DNA of 64,000 nt from assembly GCA_023205875.1 (NCBI GenBank), contig CP060773.1:310001-374000 (forward strand), in the 5' to 3' direction. The DNA comes from Chloropicon primus. Its lineage: Eukaryota. Under the pieces are notes generated by a model. That model had not been told where the DNA came from. It did not search any database and was given only the letters and a program-made list of their open reading frames with translations. A program made the translations under genes and the position numbers. This document shows, in pieces, positions 1-57,699 of the stretch (its first letter is position 1; every line of letters begins with the position of its first letter).

Positions 1-3000
1 AGTATTACCAGAGCCATCAGCCACGGTAAACTTGTCCGAGTCCATCGTCAAACCACCATTCAACACAGTGGCACCAGTAACAGTAGTGTCACCAGTAACA
101 CCCAAGGTACCAGCGATGGCAGTATTACCAGAGTCATCAGCCACGGTAAACTTGTCCGAGTCCATCGTCAAACCACCATTCAACACAGTGGCGCCAGTAA
201 CAGTAGTGTCACCAGTAACACCCAAGGTACCAGCGATGGCAGTATTACCAGTGTTATCAGCCACGGTAAACTTGTCCGAGTCCATCGTCAAACCACCATT
301 CAACACAGTGGCACCAGTCGTTGTCAACGTACCAGCGATGGCAGTATTACCAGAGCCATCAGCCACGGTAAACTTGTCCGAGTCCATCGTCAAACCACCA
401 TTCAACACAGTGGCGCCAGTAACAGTAGTGTCACCAGTAACACCCAAGGTACCAGCGATGGCAGTATTACCAGAGTCATCAGCCACGGTAAACTTGTCCG
501 AGTCCATCGTCAAACCACCATTCAACACAGTGGCACCAGTCGTTGTCAACGTACCAGCGATGGCAGTATTACCAGAGTCATCAGCCACGGTAAACTTGTC
601 CGAGTCCATCGTCAAACCACCATTCAACACAGTGGCGCCAGTAACAGTAGTGTCACCAGTAACACCCAAGGTACCAGCGATGGCAGTATTACCAGAGTCA
701 TCAGCCACGGTAAACTTGTCCGAGTCCATCGTCAAACCACCATTCAACACAGTGGCGCCAGTAACAGTAGTGTCACCAGTAACACCCAAGGTACCAGCGA
801 TGGCAGTATTACCAGAGTTATCAGCCACGGTAAACTTGTCCGAGTCCATCGTCAAACCACCATTCAACACAGTGGCACCAGTAACAGTAGTGTCACCAGT
901 AACACCCAAGGTACCAGCGATGGCAGTATTACCAGAGTCATCAGCCACGGTAAACTTGTCCGAGTCCATCGTCAAACCACCATTCAACACAGTGGCGCCA
1001 GTAACAGTAGTGTCACCAGTAACACCCAAGGTACCAGCGATGGCAGTATTACCAGAGTTATCAGCCACGGTAAACTTGTCCGAGTCCATCGTCAAACCAC
1101 CATTCAACACAGTGGCACCAGTCGTTGTCAACGTACCAGCGATGGCAGTATTACCAGAGCCATCAGCCACGGTAAACTTGTCCGAGTCCATCGTCAAACC
1201 ACCATTCAACACAGTGGCGCCAGTAACAGTAGTGTCACCAGTAACACCCAAGGTACCAGCGATGGCAGTATTACCAGAGTCATCAGCCACGGTAAACTTG
1301 TCCGAGTCCATCGTCAAACCACCATTCAACACAGTGGCACCAGTCAGTTGTCAACGTACCAGCGATGGCAGTATTACCAGAGTCATCAGCCACGGTAAAC
1401 TTGTCCGAGTCCATCGTCAAACCACCATTCAACACAGTGGCACCAGTAACGTTGTCAACGTACCAGCGATGGCAGTATTACCAGAGCCATCAGCCACGGT
1501 AAACTTGTCCGAGTCCATCGTCAAACCACCATTCAACACAGTGGCGCCAGTAACAGTAGTGTCACCAGTAACACCCAAGGTACCAGCGATGGCAGTATTA
1601 CCAGAGTCATCAGCCACGGTAAACTTGTCCGAGTCCATCGTCAAACCACCATTCAACACAGTGGCGCCAGTAACAGTAGTGTCACCAGTAACACCCAAGG
1701 TACCAGCGATGGCAGTATTACCAGAGTCATCAGCCACGGTAAACTTGTCCGAGTCCATCGTCAAACCACCATTCAACACAGTGGCGCCAGTAACAGTAGT
1801 GTCACCAGTAACACCCAAGGTACCAGCGATGGCAGTATTACCAGAGTCATCAGCCACGGTAAACTTGTCCGAGTCCATCGTCAAACCACCATTCAACACA
1901 GTGGCACCAGTCAGTTGTCAACGTACCAGCGATGGCAGTATTACCAGAGTCATCAGCCACGGTAAACTTGTCCGAGTCCATCGTCAAACCACCATTCAAC
2001 ACAGTGGCACCAGTAACAGTAGTGTCACCAGTAACGGTACCAGCGATGGCAGTATTACCAGAGCCATCAGCCACGGTAAACTTGTCCGAGTCCATCGTCA
2101 AACCACCATTCAACACAGTGGCGCCAGTAACAGTAGTGTCACCAGTAACACCCAAGGTACCAGCGATGGCAGTATTACCAGAGCCATCAGCCACGGTAAA
2201 CTTGTCCGAGTCCATCGTCAAACCACCATTCAACACAGTGGCGCCAGTAACAGTAGTGTCACCAGTAACACCCAAGGTACCAGCGATGGCAGTATTACCA
2301 GAGTCATCAGCCACGGTAAACTTGTCCGAGTCCATCGTCAAACCACCATTCAACACAGTGGCGCCAGTAACAGTAGTGTCACCAGTAACACCCAAGGTAC
2401 CAGCGATGGCAGTATTACCAGAGTTATCAGCCACGGTAAACTTGTCCGAGTCCATCGTCAAACCACCATTCAACACAGTGGCACCAGTCAGTTGTCAACG
2501 TACCAGCGATGGCAGTATTACCAGAGCCATCAGCCACGGTAAACTTGTCCGAGTCCATCGTCAAACCACCATTCAACACAGTGGCGCCAGTAACAGTAGT
2601 GTCACCAGTAACACCCAAGGTACCAGCGATGGCAGTATTACCAGAGCCATCAGCCACGGTAAACTTGTCCGAGTCCATCGTCAAACCACCATTCAACACA
2701 GTGGCGCCAGTAACAGTAGTGTCACCAGTAACACCCAAGGTACCAGCGATGGCAGTATTACCAGAGTCATCAGCCACGGTAAACTTGTCCGAGTCCATCG
2801 TCAAACCACCATTCAACACAGTGGCACCAGTAACAGTAGTGTCACCAGTAACACCCAAGGTACCAGCGATGGCAGTATTACCAGAGCCATCAGCCACGGT
2901 AAACTTGTCCGAGTCCATCGTCAAACCACCATTCAACACAGTGGCGCCAGTAACAGTAGTGTCACCAGTAACACCCAAGGTACCAGCGATGGCAGTATTA

Positions 3001-6000
3001 CCAGAGTCATCAGCCACGGTAAACTTGTCCGAGTCCATCGTCAAACCACCATTCAACACAGTGGCGCCAGTAACAGTAGTGTCACCAGTAACACCCAAGG
3101 TACCAGCGATGGCAGTATTACCAGAGTCATCAGCCACGGTAAACTTGTCCGAGTCCATCGTCAAACCACCATTCAACACAGTGGCGCCAGTAACAGTAGT
3201 GTCACCAGTAACACCCAAGGTACCAGCGATGGCAGTATTACCAGTGTTATCAGCCACGGTAAACTTGTCCGAGTCCATCGTCAAACCACCATTCAACACA
3301 GTGGCACCAGTCGTTGTCAACGTACCAGCGATGGCAGTATTACCAGAGCCATCAGCCACGGTAAACTTGTCCGAGTCCATCGTCAAACCACCATTCAACA
3401 CAGTGGCGCCAGTAACAGTAGTGTCACCAGTAACACCCAAGGTACCAGCGATGGCAGTATTACCAGAGTCATCAGCCACGGTAAACTTGTCCGAGTCCAT
3501 CGTCAAACCACCATTCAACACAGTGGCGCCAGTAACAGTAGTGTCACCAGTAACACCCAAGGTACCAGCGATGGCAGTATTACCAGAGTTATCAGCCACG
3601 GTAAACTTGTCCGAGTCCATCGTCAAACCACCATTCAACACAGTGGCACCAGTCGTTGTCAACGTACCAGCGATGGCAGTATTACCAGAGTCATCAGCCA
3701 CGGTAAACTTGTCCGAGTCCATCGTCAAACCACCATTCAACACAGTGGCGCCAGTAACAGTAGTGTCACCAGTAACACCCAAGGTACCAGCGATGGCAGT
3801 ATTACCAGAGTTATCAGCCACGGTAAACTTGTCCGAGTCCATCGTCAAACCACCATTCAACACAGTGGCACCAGTAACAGTAGTGTCAACGTACCAGCGA
3901 TGGCAGTATTACCAGAGCCATCAGCCACGGTAAACTTGTCCGAGTCCATCGTCAAACCACCATTCAACACAGTGGCGCCAGTAACAGTAGTGTCACCAGT
4001 AACACCCAAGGTACCAGCGATGGCAGTATTACCAGAGCCATCAGCCACGGTAAACTTGTCCGAGTCCATCGTCAAACCACCATTCAACACAGTGGCGCCA
4101 GTAACAGTAGTGTCACCAGTAACACCCAAGGTACCAGCGATGGCAGTATTACCAGAGTCATCAGCCACGGTAAACTTGTCCGAGTCCATCGTCAAACCAC
4201 CATTCAACACAGTGGCGCCAGTAACAGTAGTGTCACCAGTAACACCCAAGGTACCAGCGATGGCAGTATTACCAGAGTCATCAGCCACGGTAAACTTGTC
4301 CGAGTCCATCGTCAAACCACCATTCAACACAGTGGCACCAGTCGTTGTCAACGTACCAGCGATGGCAGTATTACCAGAGCCATCAGCCACGGTAAACTTG
4401 TCCGAGTCCATCGTCAAACCACCATTCAACACAGTGGCGCCAGTAACAGTAGTGTCACCAGTAACACCCAAGGTACCAGCGATGGCAGTATTACCAGAGT
4501 CATCAGCCACGGTAAACTTGTCCGAGTCCATCGTCAAACCACCATTCAACACAGTGGCGCCAGTAACAGTAGTGTCACCAGTAACACCCAAGGTACCAGC
4601 GATGGCAGTATTACCAGAGTCATCAGCCACGGTAAACTTGTCCGAGTCCATCGTCAAACCACCATTCAACACAGTGGCACCAGTAACAGTTGTCAACGTA
4701 CCAGCGATGGCAGTATTACCAGAGTCATCAGCCACGGTAAACTTGTCCGAGTCCATCGTCAAACCACCATTCAACACAGTGGCACCAGTCAGTTGTCAAC
4801 GTACCAGCGATGGCAGTATTACCAGAGCCATCAGCCACGGTAAACTTGTCCGAGTCCATCGTCAAACCACCATTCAACACAGTGGCGCCAGTAACAGTAG
4901 TGTCACCAGTAACACCCAAGGTACCAGCGATGGCAGTATTACCAGAGTCATCAGCCACGGTAAACTTGTCCGAGTCCATCGTCAAACCACCATTCAACAC
5001 AGTGGCGCCAGTAACAGTAGTGTCACCAGTAACACCCAAGGTACCAGCGATGGCAGTATTACCAGAGTCATCAGCCACGGTAAACTTGTCCGAGTCCATC
5101 GTCAAACCACCATTCAACACAGTGGCACCAGTCGTTGTCAACGTACCAGCGATGGCAGTATTACCAGAGCCATCAGCCACGGTAAACTTGTCCGAGTCCA
5201 TCGTCAAACCACCATTCAACACAGTGGCGCCAGTAACAGTAGTGTCACCAGTAACACCCAAGGTACCAGCGATGGCAGTATTACCAGAGTCATCAGCCAC
5301 GGTAAACTTGTCCGAGTCCATCGTCAAACCACCATTCAACACAGTGGCACCAGTAACAGTAGTGTCACCAGTAACACCCAAGGTACCAGCGATGGCAGTA
5401 TTACCAGAGTCATCAGCCACGGTAAACTTGTCCGAGTCCATCGTCAAACCACCATTCAACACAGTGGCACCAGTAACAGTTGTCAACGTACCAGCGATGG
5501 CAGTATTACCAGAGCCATCAGCCACGGTAAACTTGTCCGAGTCCATCGTCAAACCACCATTCAACACAGTGGCGCCAGTAACAGTAGTGTCACCAGTAAC
5601 ACCCAAGGTACCAGCGATGGCAGTATTACCAGAGTCATCAGCCACGGTAAACTTGTCCGAGTCCATCGTCAAACCACCATTCAACACAGTGGCACCAGTA
5701 ACAGTAGTGTCACCAGTAACACCCAAGGTACCAGCGATGGCAGTATTACCAGAGTTATCAGCCACGGTAAACTTGTCCGAGTCCATCGTCAAACCACCAT
5801 TCAACACAGTGGCACCAGTCGTTGTCAACGTACCAGCGATGGCAGTATTACCAGAGCCATCAGCCACGGTAAACTTGTCCGAGTCCATCGTCAAACCACC
5901 ATTCAACACAGTGGCGCCAGTAACAGTAGTGTCACCAGTAACACCCAAGGTACCAGCGATGGCAGTATTACCAGAGTCATCAGCCACGGTAAACTTGTCC

Positions 6001-9000
6001 GAGTCCATCGTCAAACCACCATTCAACACAGTGGCGCCAGTAACAGTAGTGTCACCAGTAACACCCAAGGTACCAGCGATGGCAGTATTACCAGAGTCAT
6101 CAGCCACGGTAAACTTGTCCGAGTCCATCGTCAAACCACCATTCAACACAGTGGCACCAGTAACAGTAGTGTCAACGTACCAGCGATGGCAGTATTACCA
6201 GAGTCATCAGCCACGGTAAACTTGTCCGAGTCCATCGTCAAACCACCATTCAACACAGTGGCACCAGTCAGTTGTCAACGTACCAGCGATGGCAGTATTA
6301 CCAGAGTCATCAGCCACGGTAAACTTGTCCGAGTCCATCGTCAAACCACCATTCAACACAGTGGCACCAGTAACAGTTGTCAACGTACCAGCGATGGCAG
6401 TATTACCAGAGCCATCAGCCACGGTAAACTTGTCCGAGTCCATCGTCAAACCACCATTCAACACAGTGGCGCCAGTAACAGTAGTGTCACCAGTAACACC
6501 CAAGGTACCAGCGATGGCAGTATTACCAGAGCCATCAGCCACGGTAAACTTGTCCGAGTCCATCGTCAAACCACCATTCAACACAGTGGCACCAGTAACA
6601 GTAGTGTCACCAGTAACACCCAAGGTACCAGCGATGGCAGTATTACCAGAGTCATCAGCCACGGTAAACTTGTCCGAGTCCATCGTCAAACCACCATTCA
6701 ACACAGTGGCGCCAGTAACAGTAGTGTCACCAGTAACACCCAAGGTACCAGCGATGGCAGTATTACCAGTGTTATCAGCCACGGTAAACTTGTCCGAGTC
6801 CATCGTCAAACCACCATTCAACACAGTGGCACCAGTCGTTGTCAACGTACCAGCGATGGCAGTATTACCAGAGCCATCAGCCACGGTAAACTTGTCCGAG
6901 TCCATCGTCAAACCACCATTCAACACAGTGGCGCCAGTAACAGTAGTGTCACCAGTAACACCCAAGGTACCAGCGATGGCAGTATTACCAGAGTCATCAG
7001 CCACGGTAAACTTGTCCGAGTCCATCGTCAAACCACCATTCAACACAGTGGCGCCAGTAACAGTAGTGTCACCAGTAACACCCAAGGTACCAGCGATGGC
7101 AGTATTACCAGAGTCATCAGCCACGGTAAACTTGTCCGAGTCCATCGTCAAACCACCATTCAACACAGTGGCGCCAGTAACAGTAGTGTCACCAGTAACA
7201 CCCAAGGTACCAGCGATGGCAGTATTACCAGAGTCATCAGCCACGGTAAACTTGTCCGAGTCCATCGTCAAACCACCATTCAACACAGTGGCACCAGTAA
7301 CAGTTGTCAACGGTACCAGCGATGGCAGTATTACCAGAGTCATCAGCCACGGTAAACTTGTCCGAGTCCATCGTCAAACCACCATTCAACACAGTGGCGC
7401 CAGTAACAGTAGTGTCACCAGTAACACCCAAGGTACCAGCGATGGCAGTATTACCAGAGTCATCAGCCACGGTAAACTTGTCCGAGTCCATCGTCAAACC
7501 ACCATTCAACACAGTGGCGCCAGTAACAGTAGTGTCACCAGTAACACCCAAGGTACCAGCGATGGCAGTATTACCAGAGTTATCAGCCACGGTAAACTTG
7601 TCCGAGTCCATCGTCAAACCACCATTCAACACAGTGGCACCAGTCGTTGTCAACGTACCAGCGATGGCAGTATTACCAGAGTCATCAGCCACGGTAAACT
7701 TGTCCGAGTCCATCGTCAAACCACCATTCAACACAGTGGCGCCAGTAACAGTAGTGTCACCAGTAACACCCAAGGTACCAGCGATGGCAGTATTACCAGA
7801 GTCATCAGCCACGGTAAACTTGTCCGAGTCCATCGTCAAACCACCATTCAACACAGTGGCGCCAGTAACAGTAGTGTCACCAGTAACACCCAAGGTACCA
7901 GCGATGGCAGTATTACCAGAGTCATCAGCCACGGTAAACTTGTCCGAGTCCATCGTCAAACCACCATTCAACACAGTGGCACCAGTCGTTGTCAACGTAC
8001 CAGCGATGGCAGTATTACCAGAGCCATCAGCCACGGTAAACTTGTCCGAGTCCATCGTCAAACCACCATTCAACACAGTGGCGCCAGTAACAGTAGTGTC
8101 ACCAGTAACACCCAAGGTACCAGCGATGGCAGTATTACCAGAGTCATCAGCCACGGTAAACTTGTCCGAGTCCATCGTCAAACCACCATTCAACACAGTG
8201 GCACCAGTAACAGTAGTGTCACCAGTAACACCCAAGGTACCAGCGATGGCAGTATTACCAGAGTCATCAGCCACGGTAAACTTGTCCGAGTCCATCGTCA
8301 AACCACCATTCAACACAGTGGCGCCAGTAACAGTTGTCAACGTACCAGCGATGGCAGTATTACCAGAGCCATCAGCCACGGTAAACTTGTCCGAGTCCAT
8401 CGTCAAACCACCATTCAACACAGTGGCGCCAGTAACAGTAGTGTCACCAGTAACACCCAAGGTACCAGCGATGGCAGTATTACCAGAGTCATCAGCCACG
8501 GTAAACTTGTCCGAGTCCATCGTCAAACCACCATTCAACACAGTGGCGCCAGTAACAGTAGTGTCACCAGTAACACCCAAGGTACCAGCGATGGCAGTAT
8601 TACCAGAGTTATCAGCCACGGTAAACTTGTCCGAGTCCATCGTCAAACCACCATTCAACACAGTGGCACCAGTCGTTGTCAACGTACCAGCGATGGCAGT
8701 ATTACCAGAGTCATCAGCCACGGTAAACTTGTCCGAGTCCATCGTCAAACCACCATTCAACACAGTGGCGCCAGTAACAGTAGTGTCACCAGTAACACCC
8801 AAGGTACCAGCGATGGCAGTATTACCAGAGTCATCAGCCACGGTAAACTTGTCCGAGTCCATCGTCAAACCACCATTCAACACAGTGGCGCCAGTAACAG
8901 TAGTGTCACCAGTAACACCCAAGGTACCAGCGATGGCAGTATTACCAGAGTCATCAGCCACGGTAAACTTGTCCGAGTCCATCGTCAAACCACCATTCAA

Positions 9001-12000
9001 CACAGTGGCACCAGTCGTTGTCAACGTACCAGCGATGGCAGTATTACCAGAGCCATCAGCCACGGTAAACTTGTCCGAGTCCATCGTCAAACCACCATTC
9101 AACACAGTGGCACCAGTCATTGTCAACGTACCAGCGATGGCAGTATTACCAGAGTCATCAGCCACGGTAAACTTGTCCGAGTCCATCGTCAAACCACCAT
9201 TCAACACAGTGGCACCAGTAACAGTTGTCAACGGTACCAGCGATGGCAGTATTACCAGAGTCATCAGCCACGGTAAACTTGTCCGAGTCCATCGTCAAAC
9301 CACCATTCAACACAGTGGCGCCAGTAACAGTAGTGTCACCAGTAACACCCAAGGTACCAGCGATGGCAGTATTACCAGAGCCATCAGCCACGGTAAACTT
9401 GTCCGAGTCCATCGTCAAACCACCATTCAACACAGTGGCACCAGTAACAGTAGTGTCACCAGTAACACCCAAGGTACCAGCGATGGCAGTATTACCAGAG
9501 TCATCAGCCACGGTAAACTTGTCCGAGTCCATCGTCAAACCACCATTCAACACAGTGGCGCCAGTAACAGTAGTGTCACCAGTAACACCCAAGGTACCAG
9601 CGATGGCAGTATTACCAGTGTTATCAGCCACGGTAAACTTGTCCGAGTCCATCGTCAAACCACCATTCAACACAGTGGCACCAGTCGTTGTCAACGTACC
9701 AGCGATGGCAGTATTACCAGAGCCATCAGCCACGGTAAACTTGTCCGAGTCCATCGTCAAACCACCATTCAACACAGTGGCGCCAGTAACAGTAGTGTCA
9801 CCAGTAACACCCAAGGTACCAGCGATGGCAGTATTACCAGAGTCATCAGCCACGGTAAACTTGTCCGAGTCCATCGTCAAACCACCATTCAACACAGTGG
9901 CGCCAGTAACAGTAGTGTCACCAGTAACACCCAAGGTACCAGCGATGGCAGTATTACCAGAGTCATCAGCCACGGTAAACTTGTCCGAGTCCATCGTCAA
10001 ACCACCATTCAACACAGTGGCACCAGTAACAGTAGTGTCACCAGTAACACCCAAGGTACCAGCGATGGCAGTATTACCAGAGCCATCAGCCACGGTAAAC
10101 TTGTCCGAGTCCATCGTCAAACCACCATTCAACACAGTGGCACCAGTCGTTGTCAACGTACCAGCGATGGCAGTATTACCAGAGTCATCAGCCACGGTAA
10201 ACTTGTCCGAGTCCATCGTCAAACCACCATTCAACACAGTGGCGCCAGTAACAGTAGTGTCACCAGTAACACCCAAGGTACCAGCGATGGCAGTATTACC
10301 AGAGTCATCAGCCACGGTAAACTTGTCCGAGTCCATCGTCAAACCACCATTCAACACAGTGGCGCCAGTAACAGTAGTGTCACCAGTAACACCCAAGGTA
10401 CCAGCGATGGCAGTATTACCAGAGTCATCAGCCACGGTAAACTTGTCCGAGTCCATCGTCAAACCACCATTCAACACAGTGGCACCAGTAACAGTAGTGT
10501 CACCACGGTACCAGCGATGGCAGTATTACCAGAGCCATCAGCCACGGTAAACTTGTCCGAGTCCATCGTCAAACCACCATTCAACACAGTGGCACCAGTC
10601 GTTGTCAACGTACCAGCGATGGCAGTATTACCAGAGTTATCAGCCACGGTAAACTTGTCCGAGTCCATCGTCAAACCACCATTCAACACAGTGGCGCCAG
10701 TAACAGTAGTGTCACCAGTAACACCCAAGGTACCAGCGATGGCAGTATTACCAGAGTCATCAGCCACGGTAAACTTGTCCGAGTCCATCGTCAAACCACC
10801 ATTCAACACAGTGGCGCCAGTAACAGTAGTGTCACCAGTAACACCCAAGGTACCAGCGATGGCAGTATTACCAGAGTTATCAGCCACGGTAAACTTGTCC
10901 GAGTCCATCGTCAAACCACCATTCAACACAGTGGCACCAGTCAGTTGTCAACGTACCAGCGATGGCAGTATTACCAGAGTCATCAGCCACGGTAAACTTG
11001 TCCGAGTCCATCGTCAAACCACCATTCAACACAGTGGCGCCAGTAACAGTAGTGTCACCAGTAACACCCAAGGTACCAGCGATGGCAGTATTACCAGTGT
11101 TATCAGCCACGGTAAACTTGTCCGAGTCCATCGTCAAACCACCATTCAACACAGTGGCACCAGTCGTTGTCAACGTACCAGCGATGGCAGTATTACCAGA
11201 GCCATCAGCCACGGTAAACTTGTCCGAGTCCATCGTCAAACCACCATTCAACACAGTGGCGCCAGTAACAGTAGTGTCACCAGTAACACCCAAGGTACCA
11301 GCGATGGCAGTATTACCAGAGTCATCAGCCACGGTAAACTTGTCCGAGTCCATCGTCAAACCACCATTCAACACAGTGGCACCAGTAACAGTAGTGTCAC
11401 CAGTAACACCCAAGGTACCAGCGATGGCAGTATTACCAGAGTCATCAGCCACGGTAAACTTGTCCGAGTCCATCGTCAAACCACCATTCAACACAGTGGC
11501 ACCAGTAACAGTAGTGTCACCAGTAACACCCAAGGTACCAGCGATGGCAGTATTACCAGAGCCATCAGCCACGGTAAACTTGTCCGAGTCCATCGTCAAA
11601 CCACCATTCAACACAGTGGCACCAGTAACAGTAGTGTCACCAGTAACACCCAAGGTACCAGCGATGGCAGTATTACCAGAGCCATCAGCCACGGTAAACT
11701 TGTCCGAGTCCATCGTCAAACCACCATTCAACACAGTGGCGCCAGTAACAGTAGTGTCACCAGTAACACCCAAGGTACCAGCGATGGCAGTATTACCAGT
11801 GTTATCAGCCACGGTAAACTTGTCCGAGTCCATCGTCAAACCACCATTCAACACAGTGGCACCAGTCGTTGTCAACGTACCAGCGATGGCAGTATTACCA
11901 GAGCCATCAGCCACGGTAAACTTGTCCGAGTCCATCGTCAAACCACCATTCAACACAGTGGCGCCAGTAACAGTAGTGTCACCAGTAACACCCAAGTACC

Positions 12001-30000: not shown

Positions 30001-30225
30001 TCAACACAGTGGCGCCAGTCGTTGTCAACGTACCAGCGATGGCAGTATTACCAGAGTCATCAGCCACGGTAAACTTGTCCGAGTCCATCGTCAAACCACC
30101 ATTCAACACAGTGGCACCAGTAACAGTAGTGTCACCAGTAACACCCAAGGTACCAGCGATGGCAGTATTACCAGTGCCATCAGCCACGGTAAACGTGTTT
30201 GTATCCATTGTTAAACCACCATTGA
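1..30225 (-). repeat. Coding tandem array of about 260 units of 120 bp (GNTAIAGTLGVTGDTTVTGATVLNGGLTMDSDKFTVADDS) interspersed with 102-bp variants lacking one 6-aa module
   Basis: 120-bp periodicity is directly visible. The 20132..30364 (3410 aa) and 14037..20138 (2033 aa) ORFs read through it without stops. The unit count is estimated from array length. Confidence 0.97.
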
Positions 30226-36200: not shown

Positions 36201-39200
36201 TCCCCGCTCACGCCGCTCACACCAGCGTCAACCGTGCCAACGCTGATGTGGCCGCTGTGGCCACCAGCACTCTTGCCGCTCAGCATGGAGATGCTGCCGC
36301 CGGTTCCAGCTTGGGAGGCGCCACCAGAGATGCTCACATTGCCACCGTGATCGGTGCTCGTGCTCAGGCCTTGGGCCTCACCACCAATCAGGTAAAGGCC
36401 ACCGCCATCGCCGCCATCACTGATGTCCGTGCTGCTGCCGGTGCCAGCAACGACACGCATCTCGCCTCCTTGGCCGCCGGAGCTGCTGCTCAGGCCAGAG
36501 GACAAGAGCATGTGGCCGCCAACACCAGTGTCCCCGTCGCCGATGACGAGCTCGATGGAGCCACCAGAACCACCAACGGCACTGCCTGTCAAGACGTCAA
36601 CAGTACCAGAGTCGCCCTGGCTGGCGGCACCAGTGGCAACAACAATGTCGCCGCTAACGCCCGCCACGCCCGCATCGGGGTCTGCACTTGGATCTCGCCG
36701 CTATCCGTGGAGGTGCTGCGACCACTGGTCAGCTGGAGAGCACCACCGGTGGACATCTCAGATGTGCCACCAGTCACAGCAATGTCGCCACCAAGGCCAT
36801 ACATCGTGCTGCTGCTCAAGCCAGCGGACACAAGCACGTGGCCCCCAGCACCCGTGTCCCCGTCGCCCACGACGAGCTCGATCGAGCCTCCAGATCCGCC
36901 CACGGAGGAACCACTCGAGACTCCAATGTCACCAGAGGAGCCCGAGGTCGATGAACCCGTGGTCAGGTTCAGGTCCCCGCTCACGCCGCTCACACCAGCG
37001 TCAACCGTGCCAACGCTGATGTGGCCGCTGTGGCCACCAGCACTCTTGCCGCTCAGCATGGAGATGCTGCCGCCGGTTCCAGCTTGGGAGGCGCCACCAG
37101 AGATGCTCACATTGCCACCGTGATCGGTGCTCGTGCTCAGGCCTTGGGCCTCACCACCAATCAGGTAAAGGCCACCGCCATCGCCGCCATCACTGATGTC
37201 CGTGCTGCTGCCGGTGCCAGCAACGACACGCATCTCGCCTCCTTGGCCGCCGGAGCTGCTGCTCAGGCCAGAGGACAAGAGCATGTGGCCGCCAACACCA
37301 GTGTCCCCGTCGCCGATGACGAGCTCGATGGAGCCACCAGAACCACCAACGGCACTGCCTGTCAAGACGTCAACAGTACCAGAGTCGCCCTGGCTGGCGG
37401 CACCAGTGGCAACAACAATGTCGCCGCTAACGCCCGCCACGCCCGCATCGGGGGTCTGCACTTGGATCTCGCCGCTATCCGTGGAGGTGCTGCGACCACT
37501 GGTCAGCTGGAGAGCACCACCGGTGGACATCTCAGATGTGCCACCAGTCACAGCAATGTCGCCACCAAGGCCATACATCGTGCTGCTGCTCAAGCCAGCG
37601 GACACAAGCACGTGGCCCCCAGCACCCGTGTCCCCGTCGCCCACGACGAGCTCGATCGAGCCTCCAGATCCGCCCACGGAGGAACCACTCGAGACTCCAA
37701 TGTCACCAGAGGAGCCCGAGGTCGATGAACCCGTGGTCAGGTTCAGGTCCCCGCTCACGCCGCTCACACCAGCGTCAACCGTGCCAACGCTGATGTGGCC
37801 GCTGTGGCCACCAGCACTCTTGCCGCTCAGCATGGAGATGCTGCCGCCGGTTCCAGCTTGGGAGGCGCCACCAGAGATGCTCACATTGCCACCGTGATCG
37901 GTGCTCGTGCTCAGGCCTTGGGCCTCACCACCAATCAGGTAAAGGCCACCGCCATCGCCGCCATCACTGATGTCCGTGCTGCTGCCGGTGCCAGCAACGA
38001 CACGCATCTCGCCTCCTTGGCCGCCGGAGCTGCTGCTCAGGCCAGAGGACAAGAGCATGTGGCCGCCAACACCAGTGTCCCCGTCGCCGATGACGAGCTC
38101 GATGGAGCCACCAGAACCACCAACGGCACTGCCTGTCAAGACGTCAACAGTACCAGAGTCGCCCTGGCTGGCGGCACCAGTGGCAACAACAATGTCGCCG
38201 CTAACGCCCGCCACGCCCGCATCGGGGGTCTGCACTTGGATCTCGCCGCTATCCGTGGAGGTGCTGCGACCACTGGTCAGCTGGAGAGCACCACCGGTGG
38301 ACATCTCAGATGTGCCACCAGTCACAGCAATGTCGCCACCAAGGCCATACATCGTGCTGCTGCTCAAGCCAGCGGACACAAGCACGTGGCCCCCAGCACC
38401 CGTGTCCCCGTCGCCCACGACGAGCTCGATCGAGCCTCCAGATCCGCCCACGGAGGAACCACTCGAGACTCCAATGTCACCAGAGGAGCCCGAGGTCGAT
38501 GAACCCGTGGTCAGGTTCAGGTCCCCGCTCACGCCGCTCACACCAGCGTCAACCGTGCCAACGCTGATGTGGCCGCTGTGGCCACCAGCACTCTTGCCGC
38601 TCAGCATGGAGATGCTGCCGCCGGTTCCAGCTTGGGAGGCGCCACCAGAGATGCTCACATTGCCACCGTGATCGGTGCTCGTGCTCAGGCCTTGGGCCTC
38701 ACCACCAATCAGGTAAAGGCCACCGCCATCGCCGCCATCACTGATGTCCGTGCTGCTGCCGGTGCCAGCAACGACACGCATCTCGCCTCCTTGGCCGCCG
38801 GAGCTGCTGCTCAGGCCAGAGGACAAGAGCATGTGGCCGCCAACACCAGTGTCCCCGTCGCCGATGACGAGCTCGATGGAGCCACCAGAACCACCAACGG
38901 CACTGCCTGTCAAGACGTCAACAGTACCAGAGTCGCCCTGGCTGGCGGCACCAGTGGCAACAACAATGTCGCCGCTAACGCCCGCCACGCCCGCATCGGG
39001 GTCTGCACTTGGATCTCGCCGCTATCCGTGGAGGTGCTGCGACCACTGGTCAGCTGGAGAGCACCACCGGTGGACATCTCAGATGTGCCACCAGTCACAG
39101 CAATGTCGCCACCAAGGCCATACATCGTGCTGCTGCTCAAGCCAGCGGACACAAGCACGTGGCCCCCAGCACCCGTGTCCCCGTCGCCCACGACGAGCTC

Positions 39201-42200
39201 GATCGAGCCTCCAGATCCGCCCACGGAGGAACCACTCGAGACTCCAATGTCACCAGAGGAGCCCGAGGTCGATGAACCCGTGGTCAGGTTCAGGTCCCCG
39301 CTCACGCCGCTCACACCAGCGTCAACCGTGCCAACGCTGATGTGGCCGCTGTGGCCACCAGCACTCTTGCCGCTCAGCATGGAGATGCTGCCGCCGGTTC
39401 CAGCTTGGGAGGCGCCACCAGAGATGCTCACATTGCCACCGTGATCGGTGCTCGTGCTCAGGCCTTGGGCCTCACCACCAATCAGGTAAAGGCCACCGCC
39501 ATCGCCGCCATCACTGATGTCCGTGCTGCTGCCGGTGCCAGCAACGACACGCATCTCGCCTCCTTGGCCGCCGGAGCTGCTGCTCAGGCCAGAGGACAAG
39601 AGCATGTGGCCGCCAACACCAGTGTCCCCGTCGCCGATGACGAGCTCGATGGAGCCACCAGAACCACCAACGGCACTGCCTGTCAAGACGTCAACAGTAC
39701 CAGAGTCGCCCTGGCTGGCGGCACCAGTGGCAACAACAATGTCGCCGCTAACGCCCGCCACGCCCGCATCGGGGTCTGCACTTGGATCTCGCCGCTATCC
39801 GTGGAGGTGCTGCGACCACTGGTCAGCTGGAGAGCACCACCGGTGGACATCTCAGATGTGCCACCAGTCACAGCAATGTCGCCACCAAGGCCATACATCG
39901 TGCTGCTGCTCAAGCCAGCGGACACAAGCACGTGGCCCCCAGCACCCGTGTCCCCGTCGCCCACGACGAGCTCGATCGAGCCTCCAGATCCGCCCACGGA
40001 GGAACCACTCGAGACTCCAATGTCACCAGAGGAGCCCGAGGTCGATGAACCCGTGGTCAGGTTCAGGTCCCCGCTCACGCCGCTCACACCAGCGTCAACC
40101 GTGCCAACGCTGATGTGGCCGCTGTGGCCACCAGCACTCTTGCCGCTCAGCATGGAGATGCTGCCGCCGGTTCCAGCTTGGGAGGCGCCACCAGAGATGC
40201 TCACATTGCCACCGTGATCGGTGCTCGTGCTCAGGCCTTGGGCCTCACCACCAATCAGGTAAAGGCCACCGCCATCGCCGCCATCACTGATGTCCGTGCT
40301 GCTGCCGGTGCCAGCAACGACACGCATCTCGCCTCCTTGGCCGCCGGAGCTGCTGCTCAGGCCAGAGGACAAGAGCATGTGGCCGCCAACACCAGTGTCC
40401 CCGTCGCCGATGACGAGCTCGATGGAGCCACCAGAACCACCAACGGCACTGCCTGTCAAGACGTCAACAGTACCAGAGTCGCCCTGGCTGGCGGCACCAG
40501 TGGCAACAACAATGTCGCCGCTAACGCCCGCCACGCCCGCATCGGGGGTCTGCACTTGGATCTCGCCGCTATCCGTGGAGGTGCTGCGACCACTGGTCAG
40601 CTGGAGAGCACCACCGGTGGACATCTCAGATGTGCCACCAGTCACAGCAATGTCGCCACCAAGGCCATACATCGTGCTGCTGCTCAAGCCAGCGGACACA
40701 AGCACGTGGCCCCCAGCACCCGTGTCCCCGTCGCCCACGACGAGCTCGATCGAGCCTCCAGATCCGCCCACGGAGGAACCACTCGAGACTCCAATGTCAC
40801 CAGAGGAGCCCGAGGTCGATGAACCCGTGGTCAGGTTCAGGTCCCCGCTCACGCCGCTCACACCAGCGTCAACCGTGCCAACGCTGATGTGGCCGCTGTG
40901 GCCACCAGCACTCTTGCCGCTCAGCATGGAGATGCTGCCGCCGGTTCCAGCTTGGGAGGCGCCACCAGAGATGCTCACATTGCCACCGTGATCGGTGCTC
41001 GTGCTCAGGCCTTGGGCCTCACCACCAATCAGGTAAAGGCCACCGCCATCGCCGCCATCACTGATGTCCGTGCTGCTGCCGGTGCCAGCAACGACACGCA
41101 TCTCGCCTCCTTGGCCGCCGGAGCTGCTGCTCAGGCCAGAGGACAAGAGCATGTGGCCGCCAACACCAGTGTCCCCGTCGCCGATGACGAGCTCGATGGA
41201 GCCACCAGAACCACCAACGGCACTGCCTGTCAAGACGTCAACAGTACCAGAGTCGCCCTGGCTGGCGGCACCAGTGGCAACAACAATGTCGCCGCTAACG
41301 CCCGCCACGCCCGCATCGGGGTCTGCACTTGGATCTCGCCGCTATCCGTGGAGGTGCTGCGACCACTGGTCAGCTGGAGAGCACCACCGGTGGACATCTC
41401 AGATGTGCCACCAGTCACAGCAATGTCGCCACCAAGGCCATACATCGTGCTGCTGCTCAAGCCAGCGGACACAAGCACGTGGCCCCCAGCACCCGTGTCC
41501 CCGTCGCCCACGACGAGCTCGATCGAGCCTCCAGATCCGCCCACGGAGGAACCACTCGAGACTCCAATGTCACCAGAGGAGCCCGAGGTCGATGAACCCG
41601 TGGTCAGGTTCAGGTCCCCGCTCACGCCGCTCACACCAGCGTCAACCGTGCCAACGCTGATGTGGCCGCTGTGGCCACCAGCACTCTTGCCGCTCAGCAT
41701 GGAGATGCTGCCGCCGGTTCCAGCTTGGGAGGCGCCACCAGAGATGCTCACATTGCCACCGTGATCGGTGCTCGTGCTCAGGCCTTGGGCCTCACCACCA
41801 ATCAGGTAAAGGCCACCGCCATCGCCGCCATCACTGATGTCCGTGCTGCTGCCGGTGCCAGCAACGACACGCATCTCGCCTCCTTGGCCGCCGGAGCTGC
41901 TGCTCAGGCCAGAGGACAAGAGCATGTGGCCGCCAACACCAGTGTCCCCGTCGCCCACGACGAGCTCGATCGAGCCTCCAGATCCGCCCACGGAGGAACC
42001 ACTCGAGACTCCAATGTCACCAGAGGAGCCCGAGGTCGATGAACCCGTGGTCAGGTTCAGGTCCCCGCTCACGCCGCTCACACCAGCGTCAACCGTGCCA
42101 ACGCTGATGTGGCCGCTGTGGCCACCAGCACTCTTGCCGCTCAGCATGGAGATGCTGCCGCCGGTTCCAGCTTGGGAGGCGCCACCAGAGATGCTCACAT

Positions 42201-45200
42201 TGCCACCGTGATCGGTGCTCGTGCTCAGGCCTTGGGCCTCACCACCAATCAGGTAAAGGCCACCGCCATCGCCGCCATCACTGATGTCCGTGCTGCTGCC
42301 GGTGCCAGCAACGACACGCATCTCGCCTCCTTGGCCGCCGGAGCTGCTGCTCAGGCCAGAGGACAAGAGCATGTGGCCGCCAATACCAGTGTCCCCGTCG
42401 CCGATGACGAGCTCGATGGAGCCACCAGAACCACCAACGGCACTGCCTGTCAAGACGTCAACAGTACCAGAGTCGCCCTGGCTGGCGGCACCAGTGGCAA
42501 CAACAATGTCGCCGCTAACGCCCGCCACGCCCGCATCGGGGTCTGCACTTGATCTCGCCGCTATCCGTGGAGGTGCTGCGACCACTGGTCAGCTGGAGAG
42601 CACCACCGGTGGACATCTCAGATGTGCCACCAGTCACAGCAATGTCGCCACCAAGGCCATACATCGTGCTGCTGCTCAAGCCAGCGGACACAAGCACGTG
42701 GCCCCCAGCACCCGTGTCCCCGTCGCCCACGACGAGCTCGATTGAACCTCCTGATCCACCAACGGCACTTCCTGTGAAGATTGCGACAGCACCAGAGCTG
42801 GCCTGCGTTGTTCTTCCGGTGGTTAAGGCAAGGCTTCCACTAGGGGCCTGTTTTGATGATCCTGTTTTAATTTCGATAGAACCTGATTCTGTTGTTGCGT
42901 GTTTTGTCTTGGAATTTGTGCTTCCAGTTGATAGTTGCAGGTTTCCTGTCTTACCATTTTGTGAATTCTCGCCAGTGATTAATGTTATGTTTCCACTTGT
43001 GGCGTTGTTGCCTTTTCCACTTGTGAGATATATTGAGCCTCCAGTAGAATTGTTCTCGCCTGCATCTCCAGCATTGACCTTGATATCACCAGCGGCTGAG
43101 TTTGGTTGATTAGTGCTGCCTGAAGATATGTTCAGTTCACTGCCAAGCGCATTCCATGACTTTCCAACTGATATTTGAATTGGGCCAGCACTTCCTGTGA
43201 GTGATTCACCGCTTTGGAGATTGATGGCTCCAGAGTTGTCCACAGCAATGCCAGTAGAAAGTTCGATGGCACCACTTTGTCCAAAAGTGGAATGAGTGTC
43301 AGATGTTTTCAATGAGATATCGCCTGTTTTCATTTTGCCAAAACCACTTGTCAATGACAGATTTCCACCTGATCCAAATGTAGCTGCCCCTCCACTTAAA
43401 AGAACAGAACCACCAGCATCAATGTTGGGATTCCCACCAAAGCCATCACCTCCACTTATTTCAACGACTCCTCCATTGCCGCCGTCAGAAAGATCAGCGG
43501 AAGATCCCTTTCCTGCAGTCAAAGTTATGTTGCCTCCATGACCCCCTAATGAACTTTCTGTTGCCTCGCCAGCAACAACTGTAAATGATCCTGCTGTAGA
43601 ACCCTTTACGGAGGATGAACCGGCATGCATAGATATAGATGCTCCTAGATCTGCAACACTTGACCCTGCTCGGACTTTGATGTCTCCTGCGTTTCCATTC
43701 GTACTATTTCCTGAAGCAATATTGATGCCACCTGAATTTCCAGTCAAACTATTTCCTGAAGAAACTTCAATTGCGCCAGAATCTATACTGGTAAGAACAG
43801 AGTCTCCTATCTCACCAGTTCTCAGCATGATTGCTCCGCTCTTCCCAGCAGCACTTGTACTTTCACCTGTGAGCAATTCAATATTTCCACCAGAACCTAA
43901 GCTATTTGCTCCTGATGTCAAACTTATGTGACCTCCTGGGTTGCCATTGCTTTTGCCAGATTGAAAGGAAATGCTTCCTGCGGATGATGCAAAGGAGTTG
44001 CCGGTTTCAAATTCCAAGTTCCCTGAATTGCTTACTGAGGATCCCCCAGTGGTAATGGAGACAGACCCACTCCTTCCATTTGTACTGTACGGACTGACGA
44101 TGTCTATATTCCCTGTGTTTCCATTTTTTGATGCTCCTGCAATCAGCAGGACGTTTCCTCCTTGAGAATCAGATGCTGATGAGCCACCCTGTATGAAAAC
44201 GGAGCCTCCTCCTGCAAATTCTGAAGAAACTTCCCTCTGCATATTGCCAGCTTTCAGAATCACATTTCCAGCAGACATCCTTTCCGAATCGCCACCCCGG
44301 ACAAGAGCATTACCGCCAGAGCAAGATCTCTTGCATACATCTAAATTGTCAACAGAGTTCGAATATGTCAAGTAGTCATCGATACTCAATTCCACCAGTA
44401 GATCGCCGCAAACATAAGCTTTGCCAGTGAATTCACAGCCTTGAATCAAAGCATTGTATATCAAGAGCGGCAGTTCCAGTCCATCACAATTCATGACTTC
44501 TTGTGAGCTCGTGCAATCGAGGTACGACGTGCTTCTTTCTGCACCTCCAACAAGGGAGGAGGAGCCGGCATACCCTCCATCTGAACTGGACCCTGCCGCT
44601 AAGTGAAGGCTTCCGGCCTGGGAACCATAGTTTGAAGTACTCCCGGCATCTAAATGAAGACTTACTCCATCCGCTAACCGCATGTCATCGAACGCGTTGC
44701 TGCATTCATCATTTTCACAGCTATCAGACCTTCCATTTGCAGCTGTGATGGAGAAAACCGGTTTCTCTGCTCTATTCACATGTAGGCCAATATCTCCAAA
44801 CGGCAAATTCTCGTCATCAAATTGAGCAAACCGTTTCATATACTGGGAGTTGCCTAGTTTCATTCTACTGTGAGGTATTTCTATGTCGCCAAAGGTTTCC
44901 ATGATTTTTCCTCCAGAAATAGTGGCGTTTACATGACTACCGCCGATACTAATGTTTCCAAAGCCTTCTGAAATCGATCCAGAAACCAGGTCACCCACTA
45001 CCCTAAAATTATCTACATCTACACTGACTAACCCGTCTTCACTAATGCCAAGGCCAACCCCTGCCTTGACTGCTATCGTACCACTTGAGTCTGGAAGATT
45101 GATTGTTCTCGAAAGTGTAGGTTCAGATATCCGTAGCGTTGTTGTCACCCTGTTGACTACTTCCCCTTCGAATGAAAATGCCCTTCTCCCCAATACACGA

Positions 45201-46840
45201 TTGAAATCAACAAACTCTGATGATATGTGCCCTTCATCCCCTAAATCTATTGGCCCAAATCCCGGTTCAATTGAACCGCTGCTAACTTTGCCCAAACCAG
45301 TGATGTCACTTTGGTTTAATTCCAAATGCCCCGTTTCCCCATTCAATACAAGTGGATATGATACATCAACTACTATTGTTCCGTTGTTGTCTGGGACTAC
45401 AATAGTGTTGTTACTGACTGAAGGTCCTTCGACTTTCAGAGCAGTAACGAAGCCGTCACTTTCGGACAGACCGTCAAACAAGAGAGGAAATTCACCACCT
45501 ATTGAGCCTTGGAAAGTGATGACGTTGTTCGTCGTGACGTTCTGTACCTCCCTGACCACAACAGATCCCCCAAGCTCCACTGTGCCATTCTTGTCCACGG
45601 AGATTGGTTCTGGTCTTGTATCATTTTCTCTCTTCTTGCCGAGTTTCAAGCTTCCGGCTAGTTCAACTTGACCGTTCTCACTGGATTCTAGCTTCACATT
45701 TCCCGTCTGCGACGCGATGGTTATGTTTGCTGTAGAATTCAAAGAGAGTCCATCAGCATTGATTTCTAGCATGCCTCCGCCAGCTTCGTTGCCTGACGAT
45801 ATTTTTGTGGCATTTGCAGTGAACTCCATAACAGGCTTATCGTCCTTCTGCATCACAACCTGCTCTCCGCCTCCAAAAGCATATACTCCAAAAGCAGCAT
45901 CACTCTCCTCTGTTGCTACCACCAAACCAGCAGGCTGGCCTTGTCCCGATCTGATTTCTAGCGTCGCAGAGCCCTCCCCGTCTCCAATGACAACATCAGG
46001 GTTTACCTCCGCTTCACCATCTTGCAGCAGCCTTCTCCTCTTTGGGTCTGCTATTTTGGGCGCCAACGTTTTGCTCCCAAATCGAACTGGGCCGTCGACG
46101 TCCAAGAGCACGTCAGTAGGTGAGGAGTCATCCACCGGTCCCCTCTTTACGAGCAAGCTGCTTTGAATCATTTCCAAGCTTCCCGCGGATGTTGTCCGAA
46201 GGAGGGCACGGGTATGGAAGTTGTCCTCCATGTATGTGCCAAAAGACAAAATCTCATCCGCCTTGTCTGTGCTTTCTGTCGTGTGGCTTGCGATTCTTAT
46301 GTGCGCCTGTGGCGTCACCCCTTGCTCCAGCAGGGAGTAGGGGTTAGGACCGTGAGCTTGGCCGTAAACTTCCAAGGCCTCGTTCACGCTCACAAAATCT
46401 CCTTGCGCCTCCACTTTGAAGTAGACTGAGACGACCACAGCAGAGGCCCAAATGAGGAGAATGGCGTGCATGAAAAGAAGCAAGAGCATGCTTGACAACT
46501 GTGCACACGCAATAAGAAGCTGCCGGCTGGCCTTCTTGATCTGGTTGGGATTCCTCCTCCCGGCATCTGCTTTCGACGTCCCAACAGGTTTTCTCCCCTT
46601 CCCCGGGTCTGGTGCAATCTTCGCCGACTTTGCCTTCTTCTTCTTCTTCACTGTCCTCAAGGGATTCGCGGAGGGCTTTGGCTCGGCGAACTTCACCTTG
46701 GACGTGATTCTTTGTGTGGTTTCAAGCGCAGAGACGGGCGCCGCTTGAGTTAGGACACAGGTTCGACGAGCGCGGTAGAGGGGAAGACGCAGAGGCACTT
46801 ACTTGTTTATCTTCTCGGGCTGAATCCTGGAGCTCAACAT
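1..46840 (-). CDS. Giant repetitive membrane-anchored/extracellular fibre-like protein (>15,500 aa, 3' end outside window); exon 1 46840-46803, intron 46802-46710, exon 2 46709 to <1 with apparent assembly frameshifts
   Basis: ATG at 46840 reads MLSSRIQPEKIN-AA, then a GTAAGT donor, a CTAAC branch-like motif and an AAG acceptor at 46710. The phase-2 join restores K-ITSKVKF into the 42515..46798 ORF. Successive minus-strand ORFs carry the same repeats in overlapping frames, linked by 1-2 nt indels, down to position 1. No terminal stop is seen. Confidence 0.8.
30450..42740 (-). repeat. Coding tandem array of about 15 near-identical 774-bp units (258 aa, Gly/Ser-rich, 16 internal [SG]G-x-h-x-h-x-x-G coils) plus one 447-bp truncated unit
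   Basis: Identical ORFs recur every 772-774 bp (33153, 33927, 34701...). The spacing between 41662 and 42109 is 447 bp. Confidence 0.97.
46710..46802 (-). other. Spliceosomal intron (93 nt) of the giant gene
   Basis: GTAAGT...CCTAAC...ACACAAAG on the minus strand; removing it keeps the frame from the ATG at 46840. Confidence 0.75.
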
Positions 46841-53821: not shown

Positions 53822-53920
53822 CTCAATCCGATGGAGATGGAGAGAGAGGGGGGGGGAAGGGAGAGGGGGCGAGCGATTGGGTGCTTCGCAGTTCTCTTGG
53901 GCTTACATTCTCTTGGGTTA

Positions 53921-57062: not shown

Positions 57063-57087
57063 CGAATCCTGCCTTATCTCTCTCTAT

Positions 57088-57420: not shown

Positions 57421-57505
57421 GAGTGGAGCGAGTGAGTGAGTGATGATGATGGAGATGATCCTGGGTCATCGATTGTGTACAGTGAAGCGATGCCCTCCTT
57501 TTAAG

Positions 57506-57656: not shown

Positions 57657-57699
<43 letters not shown>

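What the first reader, a model, noticed from the sequence alone, without database searches (positions are those of the whole stretch)
1..46840. A >46.7-kb single gene encoding a >15,500-aa membrane-anchored fibre protein in a compact algal genome
Seen: one ATG, one short intron, then continuous minus-strand coding sequence through about 4 kb of unique sequence, a 12-kb array and a >30-kb array, with no terminal stop in the window. Neighbouring genes are 0.3-4 kb. Inference: a type-II anchored, very long surface filament (adhesion, grazer or virus defence, spine/hair). Gene callers would split it into dozens of ORFs or mask it as satellite DNA, so it is probably unannotated.
Basis: partly seen in the sequence, partly recalled or inferred. 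Interest (0 to 1): 0.92.

Follow-up and report, generated by a model that had tools for sequence, protein, structure and literature searches.

The report
Giant phage-fibre-like algal surface protein
A tiny marine green alga carries a 46-kb stretch that is likely one giant gene (its apparent breaks vanish in short-read data at the places that were checked), built from hundreds of copies of a module shared with bacteriophage tail fibres, and it is predicted to make a very long fibre exported to the cell surface.

Summary
Largely supported, with corrections. The window is Chloropicon primus-type DNA. As assembled the frame is not continuous: 32 breaks. Short-read contigs of one sample remove all 6 breaks that were laid directly, including both in the linker. 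That takes the TAG at 30318-30320 out of frame and joins the two arrays. A relative's protein runs straight across the predicted intron. New here: the 34/40-aa repeat matches modules of marine phage tail fibres at up to 29 of 32 residues. It also occurs in bacteria and Micromonas, usually 1-8 times, against at least 260 here. A distant orthologue keeps the membrane anchor, the RRRLL motif and the module order. Best reading: a type II-anchored, probably trimeric beta-fibre, possibly cut loose at RRRLL. Length is uncertain (15,582 codons as assembled; read depth allows about half). Expression, trimer, C-terminus and function are untested. The scan had not noted this gene; two prokaryotic analogues were listed.

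The parts
46803..46840 (-). Exon 1 (ATG at 46840, 38 nt)
   Evidence: A relative's protein (P0160 and 4 cluster members) matches exon 1 and exon 2 without a break
46710..46802 (-). Predicted 93-nt GT-AG intron
   Evidence: in-frame acceptor. Supported by P0160/P0339-P0342; no RNA test was possible
46493..46709 (-). Lys/Arg-rich N-terminal tail, predicted cytoplasmic
   Evidence: Sequence; no N-glycosylation sequon before residue 329 of P0001
46424..46492 (-). Single predicted membrane helix (signal anchor, type II)
   Evidence: Best hydropathy window 2.6 at P0001 residues 105-123; kept in orthologues P0149/P0330-P0332, P0159, P0187, P0234
46025..46039 (-). RRRLL motif, candidate subtilase processing site
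   Evidence: Sequence. RRRLL in P0149/P0332 and RRLL in P0234 and P0150. Reading it as a site-1-protease/convertase site is recalled knowledge; cleavage is untested
44924..45538 (-). Two copies of a module pair also found in marine phage tail-fibre ORFs
   Evidence: tblastn 42-50% over 42-50 aa to 11 of 12 viral loci; repeated 9-12 times in P0146 and P0150
44321..44719 (-). Eight-cysteine insert, likely disulfide-bonded
   Evidence: Sequence; 56% identical fragment P0147 in a relative
42780..44280 (-). About 30 degenerate 15-aa Gly/Ser coils (G-x-hydrophobic-x-hydrophobic-x-x-G-loop)
30464..42779 (-). Array B: about 16 near-identical 774-bp units (258 aa = 16 coils of 15 aa; two N-glycosylation sequons per unit); 13 one-base run deletions in the assembly
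   Evidence: deletions absent from read contigs
30224..30463 (-). Unique linker; two one-base run deletions create the apparent TAG at 30318-30320
1..30223 (-). Array A: 260 units of 120 or 102 bp (40/34 aa), phage-tail-fibre-like module; continues beyond the window
   Evidence: (0 stops in 237 of 237 regular units)

Best explanation
This is likely one giant gene of a Chloropicon alga whose product is predicted to be threaded into the secretory pathway on a single N-terminal membrane helix and would trimerise into a very long, thin beta-strand fibre built from repeats shared with phage tail fibres. Steps: (1) shown: start, membrane helix, module order, repeats and their homology; the frame breaks tested are absent from short-read contigs. 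(2) Inferred: type II topology, from the basic tail, with 19 sequons and 8 clustered cysteines only after the helix. (3) Inferred: three chains wind into a triple beta-helix-type shaft, as in the phage fibres that carry the same modules. At 0.05-0.08 nm per residue the part in the window would be about 0.75-1.2 micrometres long, on a cell of 2-4 micrometres. (4) Predicted, about even odds: the unseen C-terminus is a peptidase S74 chaperone that starts folding of the trimer. (5) Predicted: a subtilase cuts at RRRLL, so the fibre may be shed or built into the wall. (6) Most likely role: a glycosylated spacer or tether at the cell surface that sets distance to, or contact with, viruses, bacteria and grazers. 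Its length would be tuned by gain and loss of repeat units.
For: FRAME: 6 of 6 break sites laid are mended in read contigs; frames in register. All 13 array-B breaks are one-base run deletions, with no substitution among 14 regular units. 0 stops in 237 of 237 regular array-A units. All 17 frame-breaking units have their indel in the short stretch where long and short unit types differ; 16 of 131 units in the distal half against 1 of 129 near the unique linker (Fisher p 1.8e-4). CONSERVATION: P0149/P0330-P0332 are 28% identical over residues 91-625 (E 1e-45) with helix, RRRLL, fibre modules and Gly/Ser coils in the same order. Fragments from closer relatives are 56-91% identical. FIBRE: array A hits phrog_697 (structural protein, E 5.9e-40) and phrog_4527 (short tail fibre, E 6.9e-8). 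The viral loci carrying the module lie beside major head, portal/adaptor and tail genes, and L010 hits tail-fibre families and S74. 16 of the 120 homologues listed (8 of the best 20) carry PF13884/S74. The best PDB match of the array-A profile is a putative tail fibre (9cuy_g, E 0.0042, weak). The array-B model (pLDDT 69) matches uncharacterised phage proteins in BFVD (2 rows with E below 0.001). All 5 of 48,161 chains with Z of 2 or more are hyaluronidase or tailspike chains, four named as phage proteins (best Z 4.1, rmsd 6.4, 191 aligned; weak).
Against: The window itself holds 32 breaks, and 17 were not tested with reads. X1 differs from the window at 9 of about 8,100 aligned letters plus a 13-base insertion. 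It is probably another strain or haplotype, so the mending is shown for that sample and only inferred for the window's own cells. X1 contig depth puts array B at 5.0-5.7 times the single-copy contig (a rough measure: the linker contig reads 1.9 times). X1-X3 also hold a short unit junction that is absent from the window, so the assembled array lengths may be wrong or strain-specific. Structural matches are weak (Z under 8). The module is equally close in bacterial proteins (Omnitrophota 79%, Flavobacteria), so a phage origin is not shown. The Chloropicon wall surface is described as smooth (PMC5656628). 104 of 120 listed homologues lack S74. Third-position GC of the unique part is 0.29-0.61 against 0.74-0.80 in three neighbours, which may mean weak expression.
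Confidence: 0.62

Rival explanations
1. The gene is real and continuous but much shorter in most cells (roughly 7,000-8,000 aa); the arrays are over-expanded or homogenised in this assembly, or are a long allele of one strain.
For: Array B depth is 5.0-5.7 times single copy in X1. The main array-A contig is 16.5 times array B in X3, which would give about 120 units if B has 5 (my arithmetic). The neighbours lie on contigs of 417,210 and 368,919 bp in two records, 48 kb apart. Reads show a unit junction missing from the window.
Against: Array B is 65% GC against 53% for the reference stretch, and the 43%-GC linker reads 1.9 times high, so GC bias could hide copies. Array A shows ordered higher-order blocks (runs of 12-13 identical units in the same order) that a smeared consensus would not easily give. 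This rival changes the size, not the nature.
Confidence: 0.3
2. In the window's strain the gene is a pseudogene, or ends at the linker, and the arrays are expanding as coding-derived satellite DNA.
For: 32 breaks in the assembly; the reads that mend them probably come from another strain or haplotype; low third-position GC.
Against: No nonsense change in 237 of 237 regular array-A units or in array B. Breaks are confined to base runs and to the long/short unit switch, and rise with distance from unique sequence. The 4.3-kb unique part has no indel against X1.
Confidence: 0.12
3. The product is an internal or wall-matrix structural polymer of single-chain beta-solenoids rather than a projecting trimeric fibre.
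For: Smooth wall in electron micrographs. A rigid micrometre rod is hard to pass through the small secretory system of this cell (inference). RRRLL could release it into the layered wall.
Against: Homologues are tail fibres with S74 chaperones, which fold trimers (the role of S74 comes from a reference title in PMC5537660, and from recall). A fibre 2-3 nm wide would not show in scanning micrographs (inference).
Confidence: 0.15
4. It is a remnant of an integrated virus.
For: Both arrays and the N-terminal modules resemble viral proteins; prasinoviruses carry tail-fibre-like and S74 genes (PMC12906663, passages).
Against: No viral hallmark family among the 19 open frames scanned; the neighbours are Hikeshi, bestrophin, EXPERA, pseudouridine synthase, FKBP and an IRE1-like kinase. 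The gene has a spliceosomal-type intron, a eukaryotic anchor and orthologues of the same layout.
Confidence: 0.04

Closest known systems
Phage tail fibres and tailspikes with triple beta-helix shafts and a C-terminal peptidase S74 chaperone (PHROG 697, PHROG 4527, PF13884; T4 gp34 as structural reference, PMC5537660)
   Same: The array-A core matches at up to 29 of 32 residues; the N-terminal module pair matches the same phage ORFs; the array-B model is nearest to phage proteins
   Different: 1-8 copies of the module in the homologues examined against at least 260 here; membrane anchor and intron in place of a virion-attachment end; chromosomal gene of a eukaryote; trimer and S74 not shown
Type II transmembrane collagens and ectodysplasin A (recalled, no call)
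   Same: Short cytoplasmic N-terminus, one helix, basic processing site near the membrane, long trimeric ectodomain that can be shed
   Different: No Gly-X-Y repeat; beta-strand shaft; more than ten times longer; no sequence relationship found
Giant repetitive bacterial surface proteins, including periscope proteins (lead from earlier finding e1-1129041; paper not read) and Omnitrophota giant proteins (10.1101/2023.11.21.568195, passages)
   Same: Very long, near-identical tandem coding repeats, likely length variation; an Omnitrophota protein carries the same module
   Different: Eukaryotic secretory route; short strand repeats rather than tandem globular domains
PKZILLA-1 of Prymnesium parvum, 45,212 aa (10.1101/2024.01.29.577497, passages)
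   Same: Giant algal gene missed by automated annotation, with assembly trouble in a tandem repeat; the paper notes that poly-A RNA-seq is biased against such transcripts
   Different: An enzyme with RNA and proteomic support; this is a structural repeat protein with neither yet
Chloropicon roscoffensis WZN60016.1 (P0011), labelled 'Autotransporter domain-containing protein' by UniRef
   Same: Same 15-aa Gly/Ser coils, N-terminal hydrophobic segment and an RRL motif
   Different: About 2,400-2,550 aa, different N-terminal region, no array A; Pfam finds no autotransporter domain in it

Membership tests
Phage tail fibre / tailspike | Shaft modules homologous to tail-fibre proteins | tested here: met
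Phage tail fibre / tailspike | Homotrimeric, intertwined beta shaft | tested here: inconclusive
   Monomer model of array B only (pLDDT 69); best Z 4.1, rmsd 6.4, 191 aligned, to a phage hyaluronidase chain; no trimer was folded
Phage tail fibre / tailspike | C-terminal S74 chaperone or receptor-binding tip | not testable with these tools
   The C-terminus lies outside the window and no genome is held; 16 of 120 listed homologues carry S74
Phage tail fibre / tailspike | N-terminal virion-attachment domain, gene in a virion structural module | tested here: not met
   Basic tail and membrane helix; eukaryotic housekeeping neighbours; no PHROG hit for P0001
Type II transmembrane trimeric fibres (collagen XIII/XVII/XXIII/XXV type; features recalled) | N-in, single-helix topology | tested here: met
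   By prediction only: hydropathy, basic tail, 19 sequons all after the helix
Type II transmembrane trimeric fibres (collagen XIII/XVII/XXIII/XXV type; features recalled) | Basic convertase site near the membrane | tested here: inconclusive
   RRRLL present and conserved; cleavage not testable
Type II transmembrane trimeric fibres (collagen XIII/XVII/XXIII/XXV type; features recalled) | Gly-X-Y collagen helix | tested here: not met
   Repeat periods are 15 and 34/40 aa; no collagen Pfam hit
Trimeric autotransporter adhesins (features recalled) | YadA-type head or stalk domains | tested here: not met
   No such Pfam hit for P0001, array B or array A at E 0.01
Trimeric autotransporter adhesins (features recalled) | C-terminal outer-membrane beta-barrel anchor | not testable with these tools
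   C-terminus outside the window
Non-coding satellite DNA | No maintained reading frame or protein homology | tested here: not met
   Unit lengths 120, 102, 774 and 447 are multiples of 3; 0 stops in 237 of 237 regular units; 613 protein homologues
Endogenous viral element | Viral hallmark genes next to the fibre gene | tested here: inconclusive
   None on the 5' side among the frames scanned; the 3' side is outside the window

The most novel reading that the evidence does not exclude
Marine picoeukaryotes have turned a phage tail-fibre shaft into a host surface organelle. A family of unannotated, membrane-anchored trimeric beta-fibres, here of 15,000 residues or more and approaching the cell's own radius, is made as one chain, folded from a C-terminal S74 chaperone, released at RRRLL, and varied in length between strains by repeat gain and loss as part of the contest with viruses and grazers.
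Probability: 0.35. Interest if true: 0.92.

Novelty: new variant of a known kind. Interest (0 to 1): 0.76.

Why it matters
If translated, this would be one of the largest non-enzymatic proteins reported from an alga (my recall; PKZILLA-1 at 45,212 aa is larger). It sits in a 17-Mb streamlined genome of an important open-ocean green alga whose surface biology is almost undescribed. It would show a tail-fibre module shared by phages and bacteria amplified several hundredfold in a eukaryotic secretory protein. It points to a family hidden by assembly errors and gene callers, since an orthologue and Micromonas relatives also appear only as partial or off-frame pieces. It gives direct tests: unique repeat peptides, a predicted C-terminal domain, a cleavage site, and strain length differences to set against virus or grazer resistance.

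Tried and rejected
WHOLE GENOME: none is held, so the C-terminus was not seen. The metagenome scan (9 loci; the 5 new ones read phage-like) and the protein search gave no Chloropicon piece of it. EXPRESSION: no RNA holder was on record. Three guessed-RNA runs (X4-X6) were laid. They cover the Hikeshi neighbour (X5 and X6 with a spliced joint 47946-48210) and have no contig on 42.7-46.9 kb. X4 has none on array B and one 150-bp contig (depth 152.6) of the array-A unit. Strand and RNA-versus-DNA origin are unknown, so neither the cover nor its absence is used as evidence. ARRAY B STRUCTURE: the single-sequence model failed (pLDDT 42); the alignment-based model had no Foldseek match in PDB; DSSP returned nothing for it, which may be a tool failure or a lack of intrachain pairing. 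SEQUENCE SEARCHES OF PDB: only noise for single sequences and for the array-B profile. PFAM: Myosin_VII_N on array A (E 4.5e-10, 0 stretches passing) rejected as a repeat-summing artefact. PLUS-STRAND FRAMES: the long open frames over the arrays (up to 5,413 codons) rejected as antisense shadows; homology is on the minus frame. ATLAS: only unnamed clusters at low recognition. VIRAL SCAN with array B found no relative. ORIGIN: no tree was built; a 32-residue core cannot give a direction of transfer. ANNOTATED COPY: none near 100% among proteins of 2,499-5,000 aa, 784-2,498 aa, 260-2,000 aa for array A or the 150 best representatives; other lengths were not covered. LITERATURE: searches listed no description of such a gene. 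Term searches in the two Chloropicon genome papers found no 'giant', 'polymorphic outer' or 'phage' in either main text, and no 'adhes' or 'autotransporter' in PMC12301720. Their supplements were not opened and may list fragments.
Full report
1. Observation. The layout described is in the sequence: ATG at 46840, a 93-nt GT-AG intron (46802-46710), about 4 kb of unique sequence, array B (774-bp units, 30464-42779), a 240-bp linker and array A (260 units of 120 or 102 bp, 30223 to the window end). As assembled this is 15,582 codons, but it is not one open frame. The longest minus-strand stretch is 3,411 codons. There are 32 breaks: 13 in array B, 2 in the linker (with the TAG at 30318-30320) and 17 in array A.

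2. Are the breaks real? In array B all 13 are one-base deletions in runs of 2-5 identical bases. The 14 regular units have no substitution against the commonest unit, and one substitution was seen in 560 bases of the first unit. Contigs of DNA runs X1-X3 (one sample) put the base back at every break laid directly: 30251, 30324, 30657, 30755 and 42537, 42550. One X1 contig of 332 bp spans B, linker and A. The two linker bases bring the B and A frames into register, and the three-frame translation shows stop-free pieces across the linker. All lie in the roughly 25 bases where the long and short unit types differ, and most are hybrids of the two. 16 of 131 units in the distal half are affected against 1 of 129 near the linker (p 1.8e-4), while 237 of 237 regular units have no stop. 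That is the pattern of a consensus called on misplaced reads (inference). At the long/short branch the few loose ends listed for X1 and X2 all carry the in-frame short unit, a weak further sign. Caveat: X1 differs from the window at 9 of about 8,100 letters and by a 13-base insertion, so it is probably another strain or haplotype.

3. Organism and annotation. Four of the seven neighbour frames looked up are in the collection, and two of their three clusters hold a member named Chloropicon primus (QDZ26095.1, QDZ26101.1). The contigs are 417,210 bp for the window's own proteins and 368,919 bp for the named ones. No near-identical annotated protein of the giant gene was found in the length ranges searched, so it is probably unannotated or present only as pieces outside those ranges.

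4. How long? X1 depth is 137 on a 9-kb single-copy contig, 690-780 on array B and 259 on the linker. That gives B about 5-6 copies, not 16. X3 has the main array-A contig at 16.5 times B. If B has 5 units the protein would be about 7,500 aa plus the C-terminus; if GC bias hides copies and B has 15, array A would exceed 350 units (my arithmetic). Contig depth is a rough measure. X1-X3 also hold a short unit junction (depth 211 against 442 in X1) that the window lacks. The gene is giant either way, but the figure of 15,500 is not established.

5. Anatomy. A Lys/Arg-rich tail is followed by one hydrophobic helix (P0001 residues 103-125). All 19 sequons and an eight-cysteine insert lie after it, which predicts type II topology. 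P0160 and four cluster members (one seen on 101 contigs) match exon 1 and exon 2 in one run, supporting the start and the intron. P0149/P0330-P0332, from an unnamed organism on contigs of up to 262 kb, are 28% identical over residues 91-625 (E 1e-45). They keep helix, RRRLL, fibre modules and Gly/Ser coils in order, and appear to run off frame in their repeat. Array B and the 1.5 kb before it are a strict 15-residue coil, 16 per unit. Related coils occur in over 100 of the 338 proteins then held, including a C. roscoffensis protein, proteins with kringle domains and one with three S74 domains.

6. What the repeats resemble. All 12 stretches found in viral contigs encode relatives of array A at 68-89% identity. 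In the loci annotated, the ORF follows major head, portal/adaptor and tail genes, and L010 hits tail-fibre families and S74. The same ORFs match the N-terminal module of P0001 in 11 of 12 loci. Array A hits phrog_697 (E 5.9e-40) and a short tail fibre family. Of 613 homologues, 120 were listed: 16 carry S74 and 13 carry PF18454 (recalled as Mtd_N). The 32-residue core matches at up to 29 positions. Equally close copies are in phage ORFs, in bacteria and in unnamed proteins ending in S74; looser ones are in a Micromonas commoda partial protein. Copy numbers among the 45 closest are 1-8. So the module is shared across phages, bacteria and eukaryotes, and the direction of transfer is open. For array B, an alignment-based model reached pLDDT 69. 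It matched phage proteins in BFVD (2 of 27 rows with E below 0.001) and, weakly, only hyaluronidase and tailspike chains among 48,161 solved chains (5 rows, Z 2.1-4.1).

7. Mechanism. Shown: layout, homology, mended frame where tested. Inferred: type II insertion, glycosylation, and trimerisation into a triple beta-helix-type shaft. T4 gp34 residues 901-1270 form an 18-nm triple beta-helix about 2 nm wide with only inter-chain hydrogen bonds (PMC5537660, passages), about 0.05 nm per residue. With 0.08 as an upper value (recalled strand spacing), the part in the window would be about 0.75-1.2 micrometres, on cells of 2-4 micrometres (PMC5656628, passages). Predicted: an S74 chaperone at the unseen end, and cleavage at RRRLL. 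I commit to a surface spacer or tether of variable length (0.62 for the whole chain of steps; about 0.85 that the gene is one frame in the species). Against projecting hairs, Chloropicon walls are described as smooth, while the sister genus Chloroparvula sometimes has fibrils. A fibre 2-3 nm wide could have been missed.

8. Comparison and novelty. It works like a phage tail-fibre shaft mounted in the manner of a transmembrane collagen (the latter recalled). It is a member of neither family: it fails the virion-attachment and Gly-X-Y tests. Seven literature searches (listings and abstract starts) and term searches in two Chloropicon genome papers (PMC6731263, PMC12301720; passages only, supplements not opened) showed no description of it. 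Passages were also read in PMC12906663, 10.1101/2023.11.21.568195 and 10.1101/2024.01.29.577497. The scan's own notes held nothing for this genome and two prokaryotic analogues sharing 3 of 114 words. Verdict: real feature, new variant of a known kind, interest 0.76; expression, oligomeric state, C-terminus and true length remain open.

Noticed in passing
window 58517-62488 (-): IRE1-like kinase plus ribonuclease 2-5A domain with two C-terminal CCCH zinc fingers, a combination I do not recall for IRE1.
   Followed up: no
window 47623-48738 (+): Hikeshi-like gene with a 5-bp tandem repeat (48087-48200) in its intron; X5 and X6 hold both spliced (47946-48210) and unspliced contigs.
   Followed up: partly
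window 48914-50800 (-): 628-aa ORF without a Pfam hit, clustering with a hypothetical C. primus protein.
   Followed up: no
window 52304-58377, 63245-63961: Bestrophin, EXPERA/EBP, pseudouridine synthase, FKBP and STI1-domain genes; a 142-bp tandem repeat at 57078-57457.
   Followed up: no
window 42800-46708 (-): Third-position GC falls from 0.61 to 0.29 along the unique part, against 0.74-0.80 in neighbours; array B is 0.68 and array A 0.49.
   Followed up: no
window 31099-31180; 41449-42440: Array B is built of 447-bp and 327-bp blocks. The window has one doubled 447-bp block; reads X1-X3 show a variant consistent with skipping it at about a third to two-fifths of junction depth, absent from the window.
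   Followed up: partly
window 15500-26200: Array A has higher-order blocks: runs of 12-13 unit variants recur in order about 1.5 and 2.2 kb apart.
   Followed up: no
P0025, P0038, P0040 clusters: Abundant unnamed metagenome proteins of 530-610 aa with 4-6 array-A modules and a C-terminal S74 domain; may be C-terminal exons of related eukaryotic genes.
   Followed up: partly
P0154, P0145, P0146, P0150: The same coils and modules are mixed with three internal S74 domains, with kringle domains, or repeated a dozen times, one in a dinoflagellate transcriptome; this suggests a wide protist family.
   Followed up: partly
P0045/P0314: Micromonas commoda partial predicted protein ACO61517.1 with array-A-like modules; cluster members lie on contigs of 1.5-1.9 Mb.
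   Followed up: no
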